Source: Candidatus Saccharimonadota bacterium (GTDB lineage: Bacteria > Patescibacteriota > Saccharimonadia > CAILAD01 > GCA-016700035). From it: 64,000 nucleotides of DNA. Position numbers and translations under genes: made by a program. Where the stretch lies: positions 160,216 to 224,215 of the forward strand of contig JAXLZV010000001.1 of the NCBI GenBank assembly GCA_046350755.1. Reading direction: 5' to 3'. Numbering within the stretch: position 1 is the first letter of the stretch; each line of letters starts with the position of its first letter. Below, in pieces: positions 31,289 to 45,835 of this stretch. The notes beneath the pieces were generated by a model. That model worked only from the letters and a program-made list of their open reading frames with translations. It was not told the origin of the DNA and did not search any database.

Positions 31289-31348
31289 AATGACCTCCTT
31301 TTCCTCTTATGGTAAGCCCATACTGTCGACGATTAGCCGACGTAGGTA

Positions 31349-32578
31349 CTAAGCCGACTCTTCTGTGTCGGACGGCGTGGCAGCAATTTCAGAACTTTCA
31401 GGAGTATCAGATTCTTCAGATGTATCGGTTTCGGCCGACTCACCGGCGGACGGCTTCTCAACCGCGGCGATGAGCTCATCTTCAGGATTTATCTTCTTTT
31501 TGGGTGTCTCAGCGGCAGCTTCCGCTACTTCTTCGATCCCAGCAGCGTCCGAACCATCGATGTCGATATTCCAGTCAGTCAGCTTGGCAGCCAAGCGGAC
31601 ATTCTGTCCAGAGCGGCCGATAGCTAAGGAAAGCTGATCCTCAGGGACTTTCACTGATGCACGATGCTCAGTTTCATCAACTGTCACTTCGGCGATATTT
31701 TTGGCTGGTGAGAGAGCGTTGGCGATATAGTGCTTAATATCCTCGTCAAAGGGAATAATATCGATTTTCTCATCGCCGATATTGGCCATCACAGCCTGAA
31801 CACGGGTCCCGCGTCCACCGACAAACGTACCAACGGGATCAACGCCTTCGACATTGCTTTTGACTGCTATCTTCGTACGCGCACCAGCCTCACGAGCGAT
31901 ATTGACGATTTCAACATTACCGGTGGCAATCTCTGGTACTTCCATCTCAAACAGTCGCCGAATCAGATTCGGGTGACTGCGGCTGACAACAATCTGTGGA
32001 CCCTTGAGGGTATTCTCAACGCGCACAACATAAACCTTCACGCGCTGACCCGGGTAGTACCGCTCGCCGTGGATTTGTTCAGATGGGAACATGATGCCAG
32101 TCGTGCGACCGAGATCAACGAAGACATTGCCGTGCTCGACGCGCTGAACTGAGCCATTCATGATGGTATCTTCTTTATCCTGATACTCGTTATAAATCAC
32201 CTCACGTTCGGCTTCGCGAATGCGCTGGATGATAACCTGCTTGGCGGTTTGGGCAGCTACCCGACCAAAGTCCTTATTCACATCTTCGTATTCAACCGTC
32301 TCGCCGACTGCGGCCGACTTGCGAATAACCTGCGCATCACCTACCGAAATCTCTAAATGAGGATTCTCGACCTCAGCCACAACTTCCTTCGTAATAAAGA
32401 TACGTGGATCGCCGGTCGATGGGTCAACCTCAACTCGTACTTCCTGATCCTTATCACCGAAGTCTTTTTTATACGCGGCAATGAGGGCCATCTCAATCGT
32501 CTCCATGACGATGTCCTTAGAGATGCCTTTTTCTTCGCAAATTTGCTCGATAGCTGAAATGAATTGATTCTGTTGCAT
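31349..32578 (-). CDS. nusA: Transcription termination/antitermination factor NusA
   Basis: An N-terminal NusA domain, S1 and two KH domains, plus an acidic C-terminal tail. Confidence 0.9.
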   Translation of the reverse strand: MQQNQFISAIEQICEEKGISKDIVMETIEMALIAAYKKDFGDKDQEVRVEVDPSTGDPRIFITKEVVAEVENPHLEISVGDAQVIRKSAAVGETVEYEDVNKDFGRVAAQTAKQVIIQRIREAEREVIYNEYQDKEDTIMNGSVQRVEHGNVFVDLGRTTGIMFPSEQIHGERYYPGQRVKVYVVRVENTLKGPQIVVSRSHPNLIRRLFEMEVPEIATGNVEIVNIAREAGARTKIAVKSNVEGVDPVGTFVGGRGTRVQAVMANIGDEKIDIIPFDEDIKHYIANALSPAKNIAEVTVDETEHRASVKVPEDQLSLAIGRSGQNVRLAAKLTDWNIDIDGSDAAGIEEVAEAAAETPKKKINPEDELIAAVEKPSAGESAETDTSEESDTPESSEIAATPSDTEESA

Positions 32579-35921: not shown

Positions 35922-35992
35922 CTCGATGTCTTTCGGTTCGTAGGTACAAGAACTCGCCTATTCTGCCACTTTTTGACTCAATTTTCAAGCAT

Positions 35993-36035: not shown

Positions 36036-36650
36036 CTACTTCTTGGCTTGGCTTTTATCGTCTTCGGCGTCAGCCTTATCAAGACCTGATTGCGTTTCGT
36101 CAGCTGGCAAGGCTTTTTCGTCATCGCCATCAGCCGAGTCGGTGTCGGCTTCTACTGCTTTGGTCTCTTCTTTGGCCAGATCTTCGGTTGATTCAACAAC
36201 GGCATCTTCGTTGTCGGTAATATCAGCTTCGTTGGCAGCGACTTCAGCTTCGAGGGCAGCAATCTCATCGGTTGTACGATGATCAGCTTCATTAGCTCCC
36301 GCCTTATCAAAATCCTGCTCAACCAAGCGAGCCTTCTTACCGCGCAAACCACGCATATACGAAAGAAAGGCACGACGCACTTTAGCTCGACGCATGACTT
36401 CAATCTTTTCAACGTTTGGCGAGTGCACAAACCAGCTCTTCTCAACACCAACACCCGAAGCAATCTTGCGTACGGTCAAGTAGGCATTGCCTTCATTCGG
36501 CTTGCGGTAGCGGATAACCAGGCCTTCAAATACCTGAGTACGGGTCTTATTTCCTTCGCGAATAATCTGGTGAACCCGGACGGTGTCACCTGGCTTAATC
36601 ACGGGCAGCTTGGCTTTGAGCTGCGACTTTTGCATAACATTGGCTTGCAT
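36036..36650 (-). CDS. rplS: 50S ribosomal protein L19 with a ~90-aa acidic C-terminal extension
   Basis: The first ~115 aa are canonical L19 (VIKPGDTVRVH...GNKTRTQVFEG...RKIASGVGVEK). Then comes an Asp/Glu/Ala-rich tail ending in KK. Confidence 0.9.
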   Translation of the reverse strand: MQANVMQKSQLKAKLPVIKPGDTVRVHQIIREGNKTRTQVFEGLVIRYRKPNEGNAYLTVRKIASGVGVEKSWFVHSPNVEKIEVMRRAKVRRAFLSYMRGLRGKKARLVEQDFDKAGANEADHRTTDEIAALEAEVAANEADITDNEDAVVESTEDLAKEETKAVEADTDSADGDDEKALPADETQSGLDKADAEDDKSQAKK

Positions 36651-36715
36651 AACTCGAGTATTCTATCAGGTTTACTCCGGAATATCAAGACTACTTACGC
36701 AACATATCCTAATTA

Positions 36716-36744
36716 TTGACATCAAGGATATTTTTTATCATAAT
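36716..36744 (+). promoter_or_regulatory. Sigma-70-type promoter driving high-GC island 1
   Basis: TTGACA (36716..36721), a 17-nt spacer and CATAAT (36739..36744), about 33 nt upstream of the ATG at 36778 with an AAAGG RBS. Confidence 0.5.
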
Positions 36745-36777
36745 ATTGAACCTTGTACCTCTACGAAAGGCTATTGC

Positions 36778-37188
36778 ATGCCTCAGCAGCACGTCACCCA
36801 CATCCGCACCATCAAGCGGATCTACGGCAACGCCTACGTCCGCCTCAACGGCAAGCGACCGGTCATCTTCGGTGATCGGGAGGACGTCGAAGTCCTGAAT
36901 GCCACCGGCATCGATCACCCCATGGAGCTCGAGGAACGCGTTCTCAGCGCCATCGAGCTCCTTCCTGGCCATTCCCAAGAGCCCATGCTCCTTTCCATGT
37001 CCGGTGCCCAGGGCGTTGAGATCACTCGCCACCACGGGGTGAACTACTACCGCATCGAGATCTGTGTGAAGGGCAGGTGGCGGCGCCTGCATGGCACCAA
37101 GGCCCAGCGTGCCATCGAGCACGACCTGGCGCTGGCGAAGAAGGCCAGGGTCGACCTCGCTTCTGATGCGACCGCCCCATCTGTGTGA
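36778..37188 (+). CDS. Small hypothetical protein P1 (136 aa), the first of three tandem related small proteins
   Basis: ATG with RBS; GC-rich codon usage. EICVKGRWRRLHG and AIEHDLALAKKA loosely echo the ECxCG and A..HY..VL..AL segments of P2 and P3. Confidence 0.5.
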   Translation: MPQQHVTHIRTIKRIYGNAYVRLNGKRPVIFGDREDVEVLNATGIDHPMELEERVLSAIELLPGHSQEPMLLSMSGAQGVEITRHHGVNYYRIEICVKGRWRRLHGTKAQRAIEHDLALAKKARVDLASDATAPSV

Positions 37189-37303
37189 CTTCACTAGTCA
37201 CCCGCCCGCAACCATTCATTTGGTTGCGGGCATTGTTATTGATCACGCATGATATCTATGTTTTAATCACGGCAGTACCTACGACCCTCCTGGAGGAATT
37301 GTT

Positions 37304-37603
37304 ATGCCCGGTTTCATCTTCCCTGAAGGACTTTTCATCTGCGGCCACACGGTCAAGCGGCTCATGGTGCCACAGAAGCAAGGCACGGTTCCGCTTATCC
37401 GACACTTCGCGGAGTGCAGTTGTGGCGAGCGCGTCGAAGTCACCGGTGTGATCGGTGACGAGATCACCGCTGAGTATGAACGAGCCCGCCTCACGCATTA
37501 CGTCATGGTTCTCAACGAAGCCCTGACGGAAGCAAGCTTCAGCGGTGGTGGCGAGTTGCTGGCCGGATCAGATGCCGATGACGGCGAACGGCTCGGTGGC
37601 TGA
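37304..37603 (+). CDS. Small hypothetical Cys/His protein P2 (99 aa)
   Basis: ICGHTV...ECSCGERVEV...ARLTHYVMVLNEAL is clearly paralogous to P3. Its TGA stop is followed 1 nt later by the P3 ATG. Confidence 0.55.
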   Translation: MPGFIFPEGLFICGHTVKRLMVPQKQGTVPLIRHFAECSCGERVEVTGVIGDEITAEYERARLTHYVMVLNEALTEASFSGGGELLAGSDADDGERLGG

Positions 37604-37604
37604 G

Positions 37605-38009
37605 ATGGACCTTTCCTTCTCGCTCAATAAGGGTATTCTCGGCCATCGCGTGCACAGCTACGCCTCGGCGACACCAACCGGACGTTGGTTTCGGGTCGAG
37701 CGAATAGCCACTGTCGAATGCAAGTGCGGCGCCAAGCTGGAGCTGGACTGGCGAGACCTACCCGAACACTTCACTACATGGGGCGAGCGGATGGCGCTAG
37801 CACACTACCTGAATGTGCTTCACGCAGCGCTCGCACAAGGCATTCAGGCTACCAGTTGGCCGCCGCCGGAACCAGTTCCGCACTCAGGCGAACTCGGGCG
37901 AGACACACTCGCGCCCGATCACGACTACGAAGCCGATGATGATTTCGGTTTTCCCGATCCAGACGCACCAATCCCACGACGCCAACATCCACCCGGCACC
38001 ATTGGGTAA
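37605..38009 (+). CDS. Small hypothetical Cys/His protein P3 (134 aa), paralog of P2
   Basis: ILGHRV...ECKCGAKLEL...MALAHYLNVLHAAL aligns with P2 motif-for-motif. It has an acidic, proline-rich C-terminal tail. Confidence 0.55.
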   Translation: MDLSFSLNKGILGHRVHSYASATPTGRWFRVERIATVECKCGAKLELDWRDLPEHFTTWGERMALAHYLNVLHAALAQGIQATSWPPPEPVPHSGELGRDTLAPDHDYEADDDFGFPDPDAPIPRRQHPPGTIG

Positions 38010-38018
38010 AAAACTTCA

Positions 38019-38054
38019 CCCGCTACCGAATACAACGGTAGCGGGCTTATTATT
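38019..38054. terminator. Bidirectional terminator between the convergent P3 and gmk-like genes
   Basis: A perfect 10-bp stem CCCGCTACCG-AATACAA-CGGTAGCGGG with T-rich flanks. Confidence 0.55.
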
Positions 38055-38065
38055 ACTGACGAAAA

Positions 38066-38794
38066 TCAGCGGCCGTGATGACCAAGCGTCTCGATCTGAA
38101 CTGCTTCATCCAGACAATCCGACACGATTCCACAGAGCTCATCAGCAGCCTCATCCAGCCGATCGTTGATGACTACATGAGGCCATGTGCCAAGGATCTC
38201 CGGGATCTCCCACCTGGCGCGCATGAGTTTTTGCTCGATGACCGTCTCCTCGTCTCCGCGACCGACCAAGCGCATTTCGAGCGCTCCCAGCATTTCGGTC
38301 TGAACGATGATCGATCCGGCAATGGCGAACCAGTAGCGACCCTGCCCATCGTCAAGCAATGCTAGACGCTGGGCTTCCTGCAGCCGACTCGTTCCGGCTG
38401 GCGTCAGACAGGGCGGCAGGATGCCGATCAGATGAACGGCCGGGAAATTCTCCACCAACATTGACTTGGCGAATAGCTGGAGGGCGCCATTGACATCGAG
38501 ATCTCGCAACTCGATGCCTGGCGTGCTCGGATTGACGTAGGAGCCGTAGTAGCCGCCAGTGGCATTCTGCGAGTGCTCGACGATACTGCCGGCCGCGCGT
38601 TCGCGCATGAAGTCTTCGACCGACAGATAGACGTACTTCGAATTGCCGGCGTCGTCATAGTCGTCTTCGCGCGGTTGGCGCGTCGTCGCCTTGCGGCCGA
38701 CAATCAGTTGCGGGAACTGCTTCATGAGGTACTTCATCAGCGTGTCCTTGCCGACACCTTCCGGCCCAGAGATACAGAAAATGTGCGAAGTCAT
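38066..38794 (-). CDS. gmk: Guanylate kinase homolog with a ~35-aa insertion
   Basis: ISGPEGVGKDTL (P-loop), ATTRQPREDDYDDAGNSKYVYLSVEDF (GMP-binding TTRxPRxGE..G.DY.FVS.E.F), EH...GGYYG, ILPP and RGDEETVIEQKLMRA...VVINDRLDEA all match E. coli Gmk segment-for-segment. It is GC-rich like the rest of island 1. Confidence 0.8.
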   Translation of the reverse strand: MTSHIFCISGPEGVGKDTLMKYLMKQFPQLIVGRKATTRQPREDDYDDAGNSKYVYLSVEDFMRERAAGSIVEHSQNATGGYYGSYVNPSTPGIELRDLDVNGALQLFAKSMLVENFPAVHLIGILPPCLTPAGTSRLQEAQRLALLDDGQGRYWFAIAGSIIVQTEMLGALEMRLVGRGDEETVIEQKLMRARWEIPEILGTWPHVVINDRLDEAADELCGIVSDCLDEAVQIETLGHHGR

Positions 38795-42489: not shown

Positions 42490-42604
42490 TGTACGCCAAG
42501 AACGCGAGCGTTTTAATCTTGACTTTTATGCTCATTTATGATATCGTGCGCGAGTTCTATGTAATCGCATGGATAACCTTCACAACCTAGAGAAAGAGGA
42601 CGCC

Positions 42605-43288
42605 ATGAAGTCTTCAGGTGAGTTGCTCCGAGAATATCTCGAGCAGCAGCCCGAGAAGATCAAGGATGTGCGCAATTTCTGTAATGTTGCTAGCAAGACC
42701 GTGAGATCGTGGCTCAAGGGTACCAACCCGAAGGGCATCACACAGTGTAGACTCTTCGTCTACCTACTCGAACAGCAGCTAGCGCCAGCAGAGTTGCTCA
42801 AGACCGAACCCGACATCATTCTCCTTGCCGTTCTGGTGGCTCACGACTATGTGAGCTCTCAAGAGGCCATGAAGGTGATGGGCTCTACCTCCAAGTCTGA
42901 TCAGCAGCTCTGGGGTTGGATCCGTAGCGACACACAGCCGCTGCCCAAAGCCCTAGAGCTCCTGCAAGACTGGCTGGATGCAGTCGATGGCGATCGCTCA
43001 CGAAGACTGATCGCCGCAGAATTTCTCGGTACGACAACCGTGGCGGAGCAATCCCCCGCAAACGTCATTCCGTTGTCGTTCGACTCGAGCGACCAGATCA
43101 TCGAGAATTTGGCAGCATTGTTGTCAGCGGTCTACCCACTCGCCAAGCGCGTGGAAGCCGATGACTTCAGTAATGCCGACCGTGAACGCCTTCGGGCGCT
43201 GATCGGTGAAGACCAGTTCTTCAAGCTCACGAACGCCCTGACCCGCCTCTCCGGCACCAAGGCACGTTCGTACACCCAGTCCATTTAA
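42605..43288 (+). CDS. Hypothetical protein with a putative N-terminal helix-turn-helix
   Basis: An AAAGAGGA RBS lies 6 nt before the ATG at 42605 (alternative ATG at 42569). EYLEQQPEKIKDVRNFCNVASKTVRSWLKG resembles an XRE-type HTH. The C-terminus is unknown. Confidence 0.5.
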   Translation: MKSSGELLREYLEQQPEKIKDVRNFCNVASKTVRSWLKGTNPKGITQCRLFVYLLEQQLAPAELLKTEPDIILLAVLVAHDYVSSQEAMKVMGSTSKSDQQLWGWIRSDTQPLPKALELLQDWLDAVDGDRSRRLIAAEFLGTTTVAEQSPANVIPLSFDSSDQIIENLAALLSAVYPLAKRVEADDFSNADRERLRALIGEDQFFKLTNALTRLSGTKARSYTQSI

Positions 43289-43311
43289 CCCAACACCCCA
43301 AGGAGTACGGC

Positions 43312-45009
43312 ATGACCCGCCGTCGACGTCCCCGTCCAACCCAGGGTGGCCGTAAGGCCCCCGCGACCCCGGCGACACCTCAGCCCATTCGGGATAAGGT
43401 GTCGTTCAACCAGGGCAAGGTCATCATGCACCTTGCCAAGTCGACCTACACCACGTTGATCCAGGTGATCGCTGAGTGCGTCCAGAACGCACTCGACGCC
43501 GGTGCAACCGTCATCGACATCGCTGTCGATGAGAAGCGGCGCAGCATCGTCGTTGCCGACAACGGCGGTGGCGTGACTCTGGAGAAGTTCCACGAGGCCC
43601 TTGGCTCCGTTGGGCATGGGATCAAGGATCCCGGCTCACTCGGACGCTTCGGCCTCGGCCTCATCTCGCCGCTCGATAAGTGCGACTACTACACCTTCAG
43701 CTCCTGGCTTCCCGGCGAGTCGAAGGGGTGGTGCTGGACCTTCCGGGCCGGTGAGATCGAGGCGATGGCCGACGAAGTCGACATCCCTCGGGCTGGTGCC
43801 AAGCGTCACGCTGGCGCTGAGTGGAATACCATCGTGCGCATCCACCGCTACACCTCCGACTCGCAGACGGCCGCAATGACGGCTGAACGCGTCGAGGAAT
43901 TCGTGCAGTCCAAGCTGGGACCCACCATGCGCAAGCGCGGTGTGACCTGCCGGCTGCACTTCGGTGGCCCAGACGGCGAGGTCGTCCAGAAGACGATCAA
44001 GCCGACCGACTTCACCGGTGAGCCTTTCGAGATCACGATCTACACCGAGCCCGACGCGGGCGAAGTGGAGTTCGAGCTCTACCGCGCCCGCAAGACGACC
44101 AAGGGTCGTCAGGGCATGGTGAGTCTCTCGGAAGCGGATGCCCCATACCCGATCACCTTCACCGAGTTCAAGCGGCAGGCTCACGCCTTCCTCGGCGACG
44201 ACGTGAAGAAGGCTCTCAGCTCCGGCTACTTTGAGGGCATCATTCGAGCCAAGAAGGTGGAGCTGCATCCCAACCGCCGCAAGTTCGTCTGGAATGACGC
44301 GGTTGTCGGGCTCTGCATCGCCATCGAACAGTGGTTCGAAGACATCGGGCACAAGCTCTACACCGATGAGCAGGTCCAGGAAGAGGAGGCTCGCCTCCAG
44401 CGCCTGGGCGTGCAGACGCTCGACCGGCTGAAGGATCTCCTCAAGCTGGAAGAGTCGGAACACCTGCGCAAGATCATCGAAAGCCTGCATGTCGGCTCGA
44501 TCGGCAGTGGGCACAACGAGCTCCCCAGCTCGGGGGACATGGATGAGCGTGGTTTGCGCTCTGGTCAGGGCGGCACGGGCAAGCCCCGCAACCGCAATGG
44601 TCAGACCAAGCCACGTGATCCGTCGAAGCCCAAGCAGCCCGAACGGACCGGCGACAAGCCGGGTGTCTCGGTTGGCCCCGAGGGCCAGCACCGCAAGGTG
44701 GTGCGCGACAGCTCGACCGGTATCTCCATCTGCCACGAGATCCTGCCCGGTTCCGACCGACTGTGGGAGATCGACGCAGCGTCGGCGATGATCTACATCA
44801 ACGTGCGTCACCCGGTGTTCTTGCTCGTCGAGCACGCCGACACGTACGTCTTGCAGCTGCAGGAGTGGATCGTGCTGCAGGCGCTGTCGTTGCTGATGTT
44901 CCCGGTCGACAGCCGAGAGCTCCTCCACGACTACGCAGACAGCTACGCTCGCGAGTTCGTGGTGGTCTCGATCCTCGGATCGAGACAGCGCCGCCGCGGT
45001 AGCGTCTGA
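43312..45009 (+). CDS. GHKL/Bergerat-fold ATPase (MORC / MutL-N / HATPase_c_3-like) with an unknown C-terminal region
   Basis: AAGGAG RBS. The N-box is IAECVQNALDAGAT, the G1 box is VADNGGGVT and the G2 box is LGRFGLGLISP. Downstream is a Gly/Lys/Pro/Arg-rich low-complexity linker, then a C-terminal domain of unknown function. Confidence 0.7.
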   Translation: MTRRRRPRPTQGGRKAPATPATPQPIRDKVSFNQGKVIMHLAKSTYTTLIQVIAECVQNALDAGATVIDIAVDEKRRSIVVADNGGGVTLEKFHEALGSVGHGIKDPGSLGRFGLGLISPLDKCDYYTFSSWLPGESKGWCWTFRAGEIEAMADEVDIPRAGAKRHAGAEWNTIVRIHRYTSDSQTAAMTAERVEEFVQSKLGPTMRKRGVTCRLHFGGPDGEVVQKTIKPTDFTGEPFEITIYTEPDAGEVEFELYRARKTTKGRQGMVSLSEADAPYPITFTEFKRQAHAFLGDDVKKALSSGYFEGIIRAKKVELHPNRRKFVWNDAVVGLCIAIEQWFEDIGHKLYTDEQVQEEEARLQRLGVQTLDRLKDLLKLEESEHLRKIIESLHVGSIGSGHNELPSSGDMDERGLRSGQGGTGKPRNRNGQTKPRDPSKPKQPERTGDKPGVSVGPEGQHRKVVRDSSTGISICHEILPGSDRLWEIDAASAMIYINVRHPVFLLVEHADTYVLQLQEWIVLQALSLLMFPVDSRELLHDYADSYAREFVVVSILGSRQRRRGSV

Positions 45010-45030
45010 TCCTTTCTCTCTAGTTGTTTC

Positions 45031-45062
45031 GCCGGAGCCCTTTGGGCTCCGGTTTTCTTTTT
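45031..45062 (+). terminator. Strong rho-independent terminator after the GHKL ATPase gene
   Basis: GCCGGAGCCC-TTT-GGGCTCCGG followed by TTTTCTTTTT. Confidence 0.65.
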
Positions 45063-45081
45063 ATTCAGCGTCATGAATCTA

Positions 45082-45110
45082 TTGACTTTAAACCCTTATG
45101 ATTGTAATAT
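45082..45110 (+). promoter_or_regulatory. Candidate sigma-70 promoter for the 45155..45835 gene
   Basis: TTGACT, a 17-nt spacer and TAATAT, with an AAGGAG RBS before the GTG at 45155. Confidence 0.4.
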
Positions 45111-45154
45111 ATTTTTACTGTTCGCCCGAACATTCGTACCTTACAAGGAGCACT

Positions 45155-45835
45155 GTGGATACACCAACCGAACCCACCAAACGACAGCCGGGAGCCGCAT
45201 CGACGCGCTCCTGCAGCCTGAACGAAGCTCTGTCGAGCTTCTATGCCCTCAAGGGATGGCTCAGACGGCGCCAGCTCGATGACTGGCTGCCACAGCTCGC
45301 CATCGTCTGGACCGACCGCAACGGCCATGCCGTTCTGGCAATCCGTGGCGACAACGCCATGGGCCCTGCACCGCAGGATGCCAATCAGGCGGCCCAAGCC
45401 GCATTGCGCCCGCACTGCATCGAGCAGGGAGCTGCCACCATTCAGACAGCCGCCAAGCAGGTGCTGGGGGCAGTTGGGGTCTACGGACGCAGTCCAGCCG
45501 ACAACCATCTCGTCGCCTGCCTGGCAGCGGAGTTGGTCTTCGAGCCAGATATGCCAGCAGAACTCCTTGAGGTCTGCGTCGAGGAGCGCTTCCAGCAAGA
45601 CGGCCTCGAAGTCCCAGACGTGCCATTGGCGGTCTCGCCAGGTGTGTCATCATTCGCAGGTTTGCAAGCGGTGATGGCTGGAGCTGGCGTGTTGAGGCTC
45701 TTGCCTGGCCAAACCTACGGCTGGCCGAGCCAGCTCGATCCGCCGCTGACGCAACCACAAGCCGGTGTCAGACTCATCACCGAGCGTGACATCCCCGGCC
45801 ACGTACCGGGGCATGGTGGTGGACTCTTCGGCTGA
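45155..45835 (+). CDS. Hypothetical GC-rich protein (last gene of island 2)
   Basis: A GTG start 5 nt after the AAGGAG RBS; Ala/Gly/Pro-rich with no recognisable motif. The ORF-track start at 45098 runs into the AT-rich promoter and is unlikely. Confidence 0.45.
   Translation: MDTPTEPTKRQPGAASTRSCSLNEALSSFYALKGWLRRRQLDDWLPQLAIVWTDRNGHAVLAIRGDNAMGPAPQDANQAAQAALRPHCIEQGAATIQTAAKQVLGAVGVYGRSPADNHLVACLAAELVFEPDMPAELLEVCVEERFQQDGLEVPDVPLAVSPGVSSFAGLQAVMAGAGVLRLLPGQTYGWPSQLDPPLTQPQAGVRLITERDIPGHVPGHGGGLFG

What the first reader, a model, noticed from the sequence alone, without database searches (positions are those of the whole stretch)
36778..38009. Tandem array of three small paralogous Cys/His proteins with no recognisable family
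P2 (37304..37603) and P3 (37605..38009) align motif-for-motif: I[C/L]GH[T/R]V, then ECSCGERVEV versus ECKCGAKLEL, then ARLTHYVMVLNEAL versus MALAHYLNVLHAAL. They are separated by a TGA-N-ATG junction, which implies co-translation. P1 (36778..37188) shares weaker echoes (EICVKG, AIEHDLALAKKA). The conserved C, H, C, C spacing suggests a small metal-binding fold. The genes are convergent with gmk and share its foreign composition. Tandem duplicated small proteins in an acquired island are typical of effector/immunity or anti-defence repertoires, but I cannot assign a function.
Basis: seen in the sequence. Interest (0 to 1): 0.55.

Follow-up and report, generated by a model that had tools for sequence, protein, structure and literature searches.

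The report
Strain-swapped pair of small zinc proteins
Two of the three small genes are true duplicates encoding an uncharacterised, probably zinc-binding protein found only in one group of Saccharibacteria, always between the same two housekeeping genes, and nearly identical strains carry very different versions of it; its function is unknown.

Summary
The ORFs are real genes of a Candidatus Saccharibacteria MAG (NCBI U0526_01065/70/75, all "hypothetical").

- **P2/P3 paralogy:** confirmed. BLASTP gives E=9e-7. A 13-member family alignment has only five invariant columns: His, Cys, Cys, His and one Val.
- **Operon:** P2 and P3 are translationally coupled. The Shine-Dalgarno site lies in P2's last codons, and the junction is TGAnATG or TGATG in all five two-gene lineages checked at the junction.
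- **Fold:** AlphaFold gives a three-stranded sheet plus a long helix and a disordered acidic tail. No Pfam, NCBIfam, PHROG, PADLOC, PDB or viral-structure match was found.
- **P1:** not a detectable paralogue. It is a basic protein with its own promoter and terminator.
- **"Acquired island":** not supported for P2/P3. Every homologue, from searches of billions of proteins, lies between rplS and the gmk-like gene, even where rplS is only 74-77% identical. P2/P3 codon GC is within the native range.
- **New finding:** the locus is hypervariable within a species. Strains with 96-99% identical flanks have the P3 core (37610..37915) replaced by unalignable sequence, or P1's 3' end through P3 replaced by a single P2-type gene. 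Alleles do not follow the genome phylogeny, and P3's tail is more conserved than its fold.
- **Function:** unknown. My best guess is a zinc-stapled protein-binding module in a conflict or host-recognition role.

The parts
36716..36744 (+). Sigma-70-type promoter of P1 (TTGACA-17-CATAAT). It is homologous in position to the rplS-proximal promoter that drives the P2-type gene in lineages without P1.
   Evidence: 11 of 12 matches; comparison of upstream regions
36778..37188 (+). P1: a 136-aa basic protein (pI 9.2) on its own transcription unit. The predicted fold has two beta-sheet-plus-helix units. It is not detectably related to P2/P3. NCBI tag U0526_01065.
   Evidence: dN/dS 0.20-0.33 in the close comparisons; pLDDT 84
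37204..37231 (+). Terminator-like hairpin after P1 (11-bp stem followed by a T-rich tail).
37239..37267 (+). Promoter-like site for the P2-P3 operon (TTGATC-17-TTTAAT). I read this by eye. The scan tool did not list it because the second hexamer lacks A at position 2.
   Evidence: sequence; comparison; inferred
37292..37297 (+). Shine-Dalgarno GGAGGA, 6 nt before the P2 ATG. It supports the 99-aa start over NCBI's 78-aa call.
37304..37603 (+). P2: a 99-aa acidic protein (pI 4.8). Putative Zn ligands are H15 (37346..37348), C38 (37415..37417), C40 (37421..37423) and H65 (37496..37498). The C-terminal tail is disordered and ends in LGG.
37595..37607 (+). Translational-coupling junction: SD-like GGTGG inside the Gly-Gly codons of P2, the P2 stop TGA (37601..37603), one base, then the P3 ATG (37605).
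37605..38009 (+). P3: a 134-aa acidic paralogue of P2. Putative Zn ligands are H14 (37644..37646), C39 (37719..37721), C41 (37725..37727) and H67 (37803..37805).
   Evidence: (dN/dS 0.14)
37610..37915 (+). Variable core cassette of P3. In strains L010-L015 it is replaced by 321 nt with no blastn-detectable similarity, while the flanks stay 96-99% identical.
37916..38006 (+). Conserved C-terminal tail of P3 (DHDYEADDDFGFPDPDAPIPRRQHPPGTIG). It is kept across core swaps and recognisable in distant lineages.
38018..38046 (.). Bidirectional terminator hairpin shared by P3 and the convergent gmk-like gene. It marks the right edge of the variable island.

Best explanation
**What is shown.**
- P2 and P3 are an old pair of paralogous small acidic proteins native to one clade of Candidatus Saccharibacteria.
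- They are transcribed together and translationally coupled.
- The locus is reshuffled between strains by homologous recombination with very divergent alleles.
- The P3 tail is conserved while the P3 core is swapped.
- P1 is a separate, basic, monocistronic gene added in a sub-lineage.

**What is inferred about structure.**
- Each protein is a three-stranded antiparallel sheet packed on a roughly 30-residue helix.
- One Zn(II) probably staples the fold. The proposed ligands are a His at the start of strand 1, a Cys-x(1-2)-Cys knuckle between strands 2 and 3, and a His in the middle of the helix.
- A disordered acidic tail follows and carries short conserved peptides. P2-type tails have G-[GS]-E-L-L-G-G at the C-terminus. 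P3-type tails have Y-E-A-D-D-D-F-G-[FW]-P and ...P-P-G-T-I-G.

**What is inferred about function.**
- The tails dock onto a conserved cellular partner.
- The exchangeable zinc-stapled cores supply strain-specific binding, as an adaptor, inhibitor or decoy.
- This would serve a conflict or recognition process, such as phage, competitor or host interaction, under frequency-dependent selection.
For: **Paralogy.** BLASTP E=9e-7. One family HMM hits both proteins.

**Metal site.** The 13 members are 21-37% identical to P2, and the only invariant columns are H15, C38, C40, H65 and V69. The hypergeometric chance of this is about 5e-5.

**Fold.** The AlphaFold model has a core pLDDT of about 88, strands at 15-26, 29-38 and 43-46, a helix at 51-80 and a tail below pLDDT 50. 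In that hairpin register H15 faces C38/C40; this last point is my inference.

**Coupling.** SD plus TGAnATG or TGATG in 5 of 5 two-gene lineages checked. The frame relation is +1 in some lineages and -1 in others, so there is no programmed frameshift.

**Real genes.** dN/dS is 0.14-0.48 for P2/P3 where it could be computed; several P2 and P3 pairs were saturated at synonymous sites.

**Resident locus.** The rplS/gmk slot is the same in more than 10 lineages.

**Allele replacement within a species.**
- L010-15: the P3 core is unalignable while flanks are 96-99% identical.
- L019: window 37128..38009 is replaced and the gmk protein is 100% identical.
- L016: P2 is 37% identical while P1 is 77% and P3 is 86%.
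- P0005: a mosaic P1.

**Alleles ignore phylogeny, and tail exceeds core.** The window P3 core is 25% identical to L010 (rplS 99%) but 48% to L023 (rplS 74%). The tail is 79% identical against 25% for the core.

**Charge.** Acidic, not DNA-binder-like: 12 of the 13 P2/P3 sequences computed have pI 4.8-6.0.
Against: - No experiment and no homologue of known function exists, so the functional part is inference from evolutionary pattern only.
- The AlphaFold model rests on 5 sequences. Only 1 of 5 models exceeds pLDDT 70.
- Zinc binding was not modelled or measured.
- Most contigs of this species carry one haplotype, so balancing selection is not demonstrated.
- Fast neutral divergence of a weakly constrained small protein, combined with recombination, could give a similar picture.
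- No partner is known.
- One P3 allele (L031) is basic, with pI 9.4.
- L023 and L027 P2-type proteins lack the ELLGG ending.
Confidence: 0.4

Rival explanations
1. P2/P3 are small zinc-containing regulators of housekeeping function, for example an AP2-like nucleic-acid-binding or transcription factor. They evolve fast because only the Zn site and tail motifs are constrained. The strain differences would be neutral by-products of recombination.
For: - The position is fixed among core genes in all lineages.
- A 'canonical' P2 subgroup is fairly conserved (49-82% identity, dN/dS 0.20).
- The promoter and 5'UTR look like those of ordinary genes.
Against: - The proteins are strongly acidic, with net charge -3 to -12 in 12 of the 13 sequences computed.
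- There is no Pfam AP2 hit or any other hit.
- P3 is dispensable: it is absent in L019, L027, L028 and L030.
- Wholesale allele replacement between strains with 96-99% identical flanks is unusual for a housekeeping regulator.
Confidence: 0.2
2. The three genes are a horizontally acquired island of effector/immunity or anti-defence proteins of mobile-element origin.
For: - Small tandem paralogues of unknown function; the island's GC is 59% against 54% in the flanks, and P1 GC3 is 81%.
- The locus is hypervariable.
- A second GC-rich variable island with a GHKL ATPase lies 4.5 kb away.
Against: - P2/P3 homologues are always in the same chromosomal slot, across lineages with rplS down to 74% identity.
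- There are no hits in 50,697 phage genomes, IMG/VR, BFVD, PHROGs or PADLOC.
- No integrase, tRNA or repeat borders are present.
- P2/P3 GC3 is within the native range.
Confidence: 0.1
3. P3 (with or without P2) is a secreted or translocated effector. The conserved C-terminal tail would be a secretion or docking signal, and the variable core would act on the actinobacterial host or on competitors.
For: - The tail is more conserved than the folded core (79% against 25%), and the extreme C-terminus ...PPGTIG is retained.
- A variable N-terminal module with a constant C-terminal signal is the layout of many secretion substrates (general knowledge).
Against: - There is no signal peptide and no secretion genes at the locus.
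- The motif is unique to this family in all sequence examined.
- P2-type proteins lack this tail.
Confidence: 0.1
4. P2-P3 is a toxin-antitoxin or toxin-immunity pair.
For: It is a two-gene, translationally coupled operon of small proteins. The upstream protein has a disordered tail. The locus is variable.
Against: - The two proteins are paralogues with the same fold and ligands.
- Alleles reassort freely: P2a occurs with P3a or P3b, and P3a with P2a or P2d. There is therefore no cognate co-variation.
- Single-gene lineages exist.
- No toxin or antitoxin family hit was found.
Confidence: 0.06
5. P2-type proteins are ubiquitin- or Pup-like protein modifiers conjugated through their C-terminal Gly-Gly.
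For: Seven of the 10 P2-type sequences end in a flexible tail with ...LGG, LGGG or LGGD.
Against: - The fold is not a beta-grasp.
- No E1, ligase or JAB genes lie nearby.
- In two-gene lineages the GG codons double as the SD for P3.
- L023 and L027 lack the ending.
Confidence: 0.03

Closest known systems
Classical zinc-knuckle / beta-beta-alpha zinc fingers (C2H2-type logic)
   Same: It has a Cys-x(1-2)-Cys-Gly knuckle in a beta turn plus a His from a following helix. It is a small domain apparently held together by one metal site, and the ligands are the only invariant residues.
   Different: The ligand order is H...CxC...H, with about 23 and about 27 residues between them. The sheet has three strands and the helix has about 30 residues. 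The protein is acidic. No zinc-finger Pfam model reaches significance: the best is Zn_Tnp_IS91 at E=0.19 in 1 of 13 members.
AP2/ERF-type DNA-binding domain (for example PDB 6sy0)
MmoD, inhibitory subunit of methane monooxygenase (PDB 6d7k_H)
   Different: Sequence identity is 3%. The score is below the usual homology range, and the biology is unrelated.
Flexible (metagenomic) genomic islands and allelic replacement hot spots under frequency-dependent selection (for example O-antigen, defence or immunity loci)
   Same: The chromosomal position is fixed and the flanks are near-identical. The content differs radically between strains and alleles do not follow phylogeny.
   Different: The island is only 1.1-1.4 kb within this species (up to 2.9 kb in L016). 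It encodes soluble 83-142-aa proteins of one orphan family rather than surface-biosynthesis or recognised defence genes. No PADLOC hit was found.
Type II toxin-antitoxin operons
   Same: It is a bicistronic, translationally coupled pair of small genes. The first product has a disordered tail.
   Different: The two products are paralogues. There is no cognate co-variation, and singleton lineages exist.

Membership tests
Any curated protein family (Pfam-A, NCBIfam, PHROGs, PADLOC) | Sequence match to the family HMM above, or at least near, its threshold | tested here: not met
   P1, P2 and P3 have no hit at E<=1 in Pfam, PHROGs or NCBIfam, and none at E<=0.1 in PADLOC. All 13 family members were scanned against Pfam at E<=10; this gave only six single-member chance hits, the best at E=0.063.
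Structural zinc-binding small protein (zinc knuckle type) | Four conserved Cys/His ligands at fixed positions across divergent members | tested here: met
   H15, C38, C40 and H65 are invariant in 13 sequences that are 21-37% identical to P2. The chance probability is about 5e-5.
Structural zinc-binding small protein (zinc knuckle type) | Ligands converge in space, and metal is bound stoichiometrically | not testable with these tools
The hairpin register places residue 15 opposite residues 38-40, but this is inference only. ICP-MS or a PAR assay is needed.
AP2/ERF DNA-binding domain | Pfam AP2 match, or a strong structural match to a three-stranded sheet plus helix | tested here: inconclusive
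AP2/ERF DNA-binding domain | Basic DNA-contacting surface | tested here: not met
   Net charge at pH 7 is -3 to -12 for 12 of the 13 P2/P3 sequences computed.
Type II toxin-antitoxin / toxin-immunity pair | Two non-homologous partners whose alleles co-vary; a recognisable toxin or antitoxin domain | tested here: not met
   The partners are paralogues. Alleles reassort independently. No domain hits were found. P2-type singletons occur in L019, L027, L028 and L030.
Phage or mobile-element anti-defence protein | Encoded on phages, plasmids or integrative elements, or next to mobility genes | tested here: not met
   There are no tblastn hits in 50,697 phage records, none in IMG/VR, and no BFVD fold match at E<=0.001. 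The chromosomal slot is fixed in all lineages.
Ubiquitin-like / Pup-like modifier | C-terminal Gly-Gly (or GGQ/E) on a flexible tail | tested here: met
   Seven of the 10 P2-type sequences end in LGG, LGGG or LGGD; window P2 itself ends ERLGG. L023 and L027 do not.
Ubiquitin-like / Pup-like modifier | Beta-grasp fold (or full disorder for Pup), with an activating or ligating enzyme encoded nearby | tested here: not met
   The predicted fold is beta-beta-beta-alpha. Neighbouring genes are rplS, gmk-like, dnaE, pyrC-like and pyrD.
Guanylate kinase (the convergent neighbour, 38066..38794) | Match to guanylate kinase models at the curated cut-off | tested here: inconclusive
   Pfam Guanylate_kin matches at 43 bits, above its 25.2 cut-off, but only over residues 6-87. 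TIGR03263 scores 85.6 bits, below its equivalog cut-off of 160. It is a divergent gmk-like P-loop kinase with an insertion.

The most novel reading that the evidence does not exclude
The rplS-gmk slot of this Saccharibacteria clade holds a new kind of conflict or recognition module. It would be a coupled pair of zinc-stapled mini-proteins whose folded cores are exchanged between strains as cassettes. Alleles would be maintained across species boundaries, while a constant disordered tail plugs into a conserved cellular machine. This arrangement could set strain-specific compatibility with phages, competitors or the actinobacterial host of these epibionts.
Probability: 0.18. Interest if true: 0.75.

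Novelty: new variant of a known kind. Interest (0 to 1): 0.5.

Why it matters
Saccharibacteria are ultra-small epibionts with reduced genomes, and what sets their strain-level host range and phage susceptibility is largely unknown.

Here a tiny orphan family sits at a fixed core-genome position and is retained in every sampled lineage of the clade. Its folded cores differ more between near-identical strains than between species. That makes it a compact, testable candidate for such a determinant.

It also adds an apparently new His-Cys-Cys-His mini-domain to the list of zinc-stapled folds. If the function proves mundane, the locus is still a clear marker of homologous recombination and haplotype structure in an uncultured CPR (Candidate Phyla Radiation) population.

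Tried and rejected
1. **P1 as a third paralogue: rejected.** BLASTP gives E>10. hhalign probability is 0.06%. The family HMM gives no hit. Both P1 and P2 are predicted to have sheet-plus-helix units, but I could not superpose the two models.
2. **Known families: none.** Searched Pfam, NCBIfam, PHROGs and PADLOC, Pfam on all 13 members, and PDB sequence profiles for both families.
4. **Wider homologues: few.**
   - The two searches of 5.8 billion proteins with P2/P3 profiles gave 3 and 7 clusters, and the search with P1 gave 5.
   - An exhaustive HMMER search of 1.84 billion representatives gave 4.
   - Scans with the gmk-like protein found only 4 loci in GTDB species genomes and 3 in JGI metagenomes. 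The metagenome loci were too short to show the island.
   - The family alignment was too divergent for a viral-contig scan.
5. **Programmed frameshift or readthrough joining P2 and P3: rejected.** The frame relation is +1 in the window and L016 but -1 in L021 and L031.
6. **Diversity-generating retroelement: rejected without a dedicated search.** The replaced segments are unalignable by blastn rather than A-specific variants.
7. **RNA element or tRNA-bordered island: none.** Rfam gave nothing at E<=1. The nearest tRNA is more than 17 kb away.
8. **The GTACCT motif upstream of every P2-type gene.** It first looked like a locus-specific operator. It also occurs upstream of the clpB and pyrC-like genes and is not enriched. 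I therefore treat it as a general 5'UTR feature.
9. **The antisense ORF 36709..37194 (161 aa).** Gene callers on some short contigs called it. I rejected it in favour of P1, based on codon-position substitution bias and dN/dS in the + frame and a confident P1 model.
10. **Literature.** One full-text search on Saccharibacteria hypervariable islands returned nothing relevant.
Full report
**1. What is in the sequence**

The region contains three + strand ORFs at the stated coordinates:

| Gene | Coordinates | Length |
|---|---|---|
| P1 | 36778..37188 | 136 aa |
| P2 | 37304..37603 | 99 aa |
| P3 | 37605..38009 | 134 aa |

They lie between a divergent rplS (36036..36650, -) and a convergent gmk-like gene (38066..38794, -), which is followed by dnaE.

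The source is a Candidatus Saccharibacteria MAG. NCBI calls the three genes U0526_01065, U0526_01070 and U0526_01075, all "hypothetical protein".

Transcription signals:
- P1 has a near-consensus promoter (TTGACA-17-CATAAT, 36716..36744) and its own terminator hairpin (37204..37231).
- P2 has a strong GGAGGA ribosome-binding site. I also read a promoter-like TTGATC-17-TTTAAT site by eye.
- P3 starts one base after the P2 stop. A GGTGG site lies in the last P2 codons.
- A bidirectional terminator (38018..38046) closes the operon.

P1 is therefore monocistronic, and P2-P3 is a coupled bicistron.

**2. Are they real genes, and are they paralogues?**

*Coding status.* Orthologue comparisons show purifying selection in the + frame:
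- P3, window versus L016: dN/dS 0.14, with differences by codon position of 11, 8 and 38.
- P1, window versus L019: dN/dS 0.20, with differences of 31, 21 and 61.

This also rejects the 161-aa antisense ORF (36709..37194) that gene callers picked on some short contigs.

*P2 versus P3.* They are significantly similar: BLASTP E=9e-7 with 37% identity over the ECxCG...HY..VL..AL stretch.

*P1.* It shows no similarity to either. BLASTP gives E=11 and 12. hhalign of the two family profiles gives probability 0.06%. The P2/P3 HMM does not hit P1 at E<=1.

P1 is basic (pI 9.2), whereas P2 and P3 are acidic (pI 4.8 and 5.5).

**3. The family**

*Size.* The family is tiny.
- Word-indexed searches of 5.8 billion proteins gave 3 clusters, then 7 with a 13-sequence profile.
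- An exhaustive HMMER pass over 1.84 billion representatives gave 4.

*Location.* Every member whose context I could read lies in the same slot, rplS -> [..] <- gmk-like <- dnaE.

*Subfamilies.* There are two old subfamilies. P2-type and P3-type proteins are 13-27% identical to each other and 22-86% identical within a type. The tandem duplication therefore predates the sampled lineages.

Locus contents by lineage:

| Lineage | Contents of the slot |
|---|---|
| L019, L027, L028, L030 | a single P2-type gene (L019 also has P1) |
| Window, L010, L016, L021, L023, L031 | P2 + P3 |

P1 occurs only in the window sub-lineage (window, L010, L016, L019, L020).

*Invariant residues.* Across 13 members that are 21-37% identical to P2, the only invariant columns are H15, C38, C40, H65 and V69. 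By a hypergeometric estimate, 4 of 5 invariant columns being His or Cys has probability about 5e-5.

*Predicted fold.* The AlphaFold model of P2 has mean pLDDT 74.5, with a core near 88. It used a shallow alignment, and only one of five models exceeded pLDDT 70. It shows strands at 15-26, 29-38 and 43-46, a helix at 51-80 and a disordered tail. In that hairpin register residue 15 lies opposite residues 38-40. The His, the Cys-x-Cys knuckle and the helix His could therefore form one tetrahedral site. This is inference, not a tested result.

*No known relatives.* No curated family matches:
- Pfam, NCBIfam, PHROGs and PADLOC, including Pfam scans of all 13 members.
- PDB sequence profiles.
- BFVD gives nothing at E<=0.001.

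**4. Coupling**

The junction is conserved:
- ...CTC GGT GGC TGA g ATG in the window and L010.
- ...GGA GGC TGA c ATG in L016.
- ...GGA GGT GAC TGATG in L021.
- ...GGA GGT GGA TGATG in L031.

The Leu-Gly-Gly codons of P2 double as the Shine-Dalgarno site for P3.

The P2-to-P3 frame offset is +1 in the window clade and -1 in L021 and L031. This excludes a conserved programmed frameshift and supports re-initiation coupling.

It also favours the 134-aa start (37605) over the 143-aa call made by pipelines. The 99-aa P2 start is favoured over NCBI's 78-aa call, which would remove the invariant His15.

**5. Not an acquired island, but a hypervariable resident locus**

*Composition.* GC3 values are as follows:

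| Gene | GC3 (%) |
|---|---|
| P1 | 81 |
| gmk-like | 70 |
| pyrC-like | 68 |
| P2 | 67 |
| pyrD | 64 |
| P3 | 60 |
| dnaE | 59 |

P2 and P3 fall within the native range. The gmk-like gene is resident in all lineages. P1 stands out and may be a later arrival.

*No mobile-element link.* There are no phage, IMG/VR or viral-structure hits. No tRNA or integrase borders the locus.

*Variation within a species.* This was the unexpected result.
- **L010-L015** come from six different samples. Their flanks are 96-99% identical to the window over 17 kb. Window 37610..37915, the folded core of P3, is replaced by 321 nt with no blastn similarity. The replacement begins five bases into P3 and ends at the start of the conserved tail.
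- **L019** has flanks about 97% identical and a gmk protein 100% identical. Window 37128..38009 is replaced by 560 nt encoding a single "canonical" P2-type gene. Its P1 is only 71% identical. Divergence rises exactly at the P1 start and stops at the P3 stop.
- **L016** (rplS 87%) keeps P1 at 77% and P3 at 86% identity. Its P2 is only 37% identical, and a 425-aa membrane protein gene is inserted.
- **P0005** is a mosaic P1.

*Alleles do not track phylogeny.* The window P3 core is 25% identical to the L010 allele (rplS 99%) but 48% identical to L023 (rplS 74%).

*Tail versus core.* In the window-L010 comparison the P3 tail is 79% identical and the core 25%. This is the reverse of the usual pattern.

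*Reassortment.* P2 and P3 alleles reassort independently. P2a occurs with P3a or P3b, and P3a with P2a or P2d.

*Haplotype frequency.* Most long contigs of this species carry the window haplotype.

**6. Interpretation**

*Shown:*
- An orphan, clade-restricted family of small acidic proteins whose only invariant side chains are H, C, C, H.
- An ancient tandem pair with translational coupling.
- A fixed chromosomal position.
- Recombination-driven allele replacement between near-identical strains.
- A conserved disordered tail on P3.

*Inferred:*
- One structural zinc per domain.
- Tails that act as docking peptides: G[GS]ELLGG in P2-type proteins, and YEADDDFG[FW]P plus ...PPGTIG in P3-type proteins.
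- Exchangeable cores that provide strain-specific protein binding in a conflict or recognition process.

I put about 0.4 on this functional reading.

*Rivals:*

| Rival | Confidence | Main argument against |
|---|---|---|
| Weakly constrained housekeeping regulator, perhaps AP2-like | 0.2 | acidity |
| Mobile-derived anti-defence or effector island | 0.1 | fixed synteny, no mobile-element hits |
| Secreted effector with a C-terminal signal | 0.1 | no signal peptide or secretion genes |
| Toxin-antitoxin or immunity pair | 0.06 | paralogy, free reassortment, singletons |
| Gly-Gly protein modifier | 0.03 | not a beta-grasp, no enzymes nearby |

**7. Novelty and score**

The family is undescribed, and its function is open. 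Small orphan genes in strain-variable slots are common in CPR genomes. The notable features here are:
- the clean H-C-C-H signature;
- the conserved coupling;
- core-cassette swapping with a constant tail inside a core-genome neighbourhood.

I rate it as a new variant of a known kind (small zinc-stapled proteins in a flexible genomic island). Interest is 0.5.

Noticed in passing
window 42569..45835 (+): This is a second GC-rich block (62-63% GC between 43 and 45 kb). It holds a 239-aa ORF, a 565-aa GHKL/MORC-like ATPase and a 245-aa ORF. The ATPase matches Pfam HATPase_c_3 at 1e-13 and PADLOC TmtA at 4e-13, and its GC3 is 82.5%. The block is absent at the same position in L021, L023 and L031, so it may be a variable defence island.
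   Followed up: partly
L016:2960-4237 (-): In a related species a 425-aa protein gene is inserted between P1 and P2. The protein has a signal peptide, one transmembrane helix and a Gly/Ser/Asp/His-rich tail, and has no Pfam hit. The insertion shows that P1 and P2-P3 are separable units.
   Followed up: partly
P0005 (989-nt Logan contig), alignment A3: This P1 variant is a mosaic. Residues 1-30 and 71-136 resemble the window allele, and residues 31-70 resemble the L019 allele. That indicates recombination inside P1.
   Followed up: partly
window 36755..36762, 37275..37282, 35940..35947 (-), 31342..31349 (-): A GTACCT(A/C)(C/T) motif lies 15-30 nt upstream of the start codons of P1, P2 and the pyrC-like gene, and about 55 nt upstream of clpB. 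A GTACCT or GCACCT motif also lies upstream of every P2-type gene in other lineages. It may be a general 5'UTR or transcription-start feature of this lineage. It is not statistically enriched in the window (6 found against 3.1 expected).
   Followed up: partly
window 36778..37188 (P1 family alignment A3): The P1 family has its own invariant His and Cys residues (H65, C96, H105, H115). C96 and H115 sit in a hairpin-plus-helix unit that resembles the P2 layout. P1 may have its own metal site, or a very remote relationship to P2 that sequence methods cannot show.
   Followed up: no
window 38066..38794 (-): The 'gmk' neighbour is a divergent guanylate-kinase-like P-loop protein of 242 aa. Pfam matches only residues 6-87. 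TIGR03263 scores 85.6 bits against a cut-off of 160. It carries an internal insertion and is conserved next to the P2/P3 slot in every lineage.
   Followed up: partly
window 36036..36650 (-): Ribosomal protein L19 carries a C-terminal extension of about 90 aa that is rich in acidic residues and Lys. The Pfam domain covers only residues 6-111 of 204.
   Followed up: no
window 37304..37603 and 37605..38009, public annotations: Start-site calls disagree between pipelines. P2 is called at 99 or 78 aa, and P3 at 134, 143 or 145 aa. The family conservation and Shine-Dalgarno positions favour 99 and 134 aa.
   Followed up: yes
L023:7056-7394 (+): In this distant lineage the P1 position is occupied by an unrelated 112-aa ORF with no Pfam hit. 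The P3 orthologue there appears to start at TTG after a GAGGAGG site, and the gene caller truncated it to 90 aa.
   Followed up: partly
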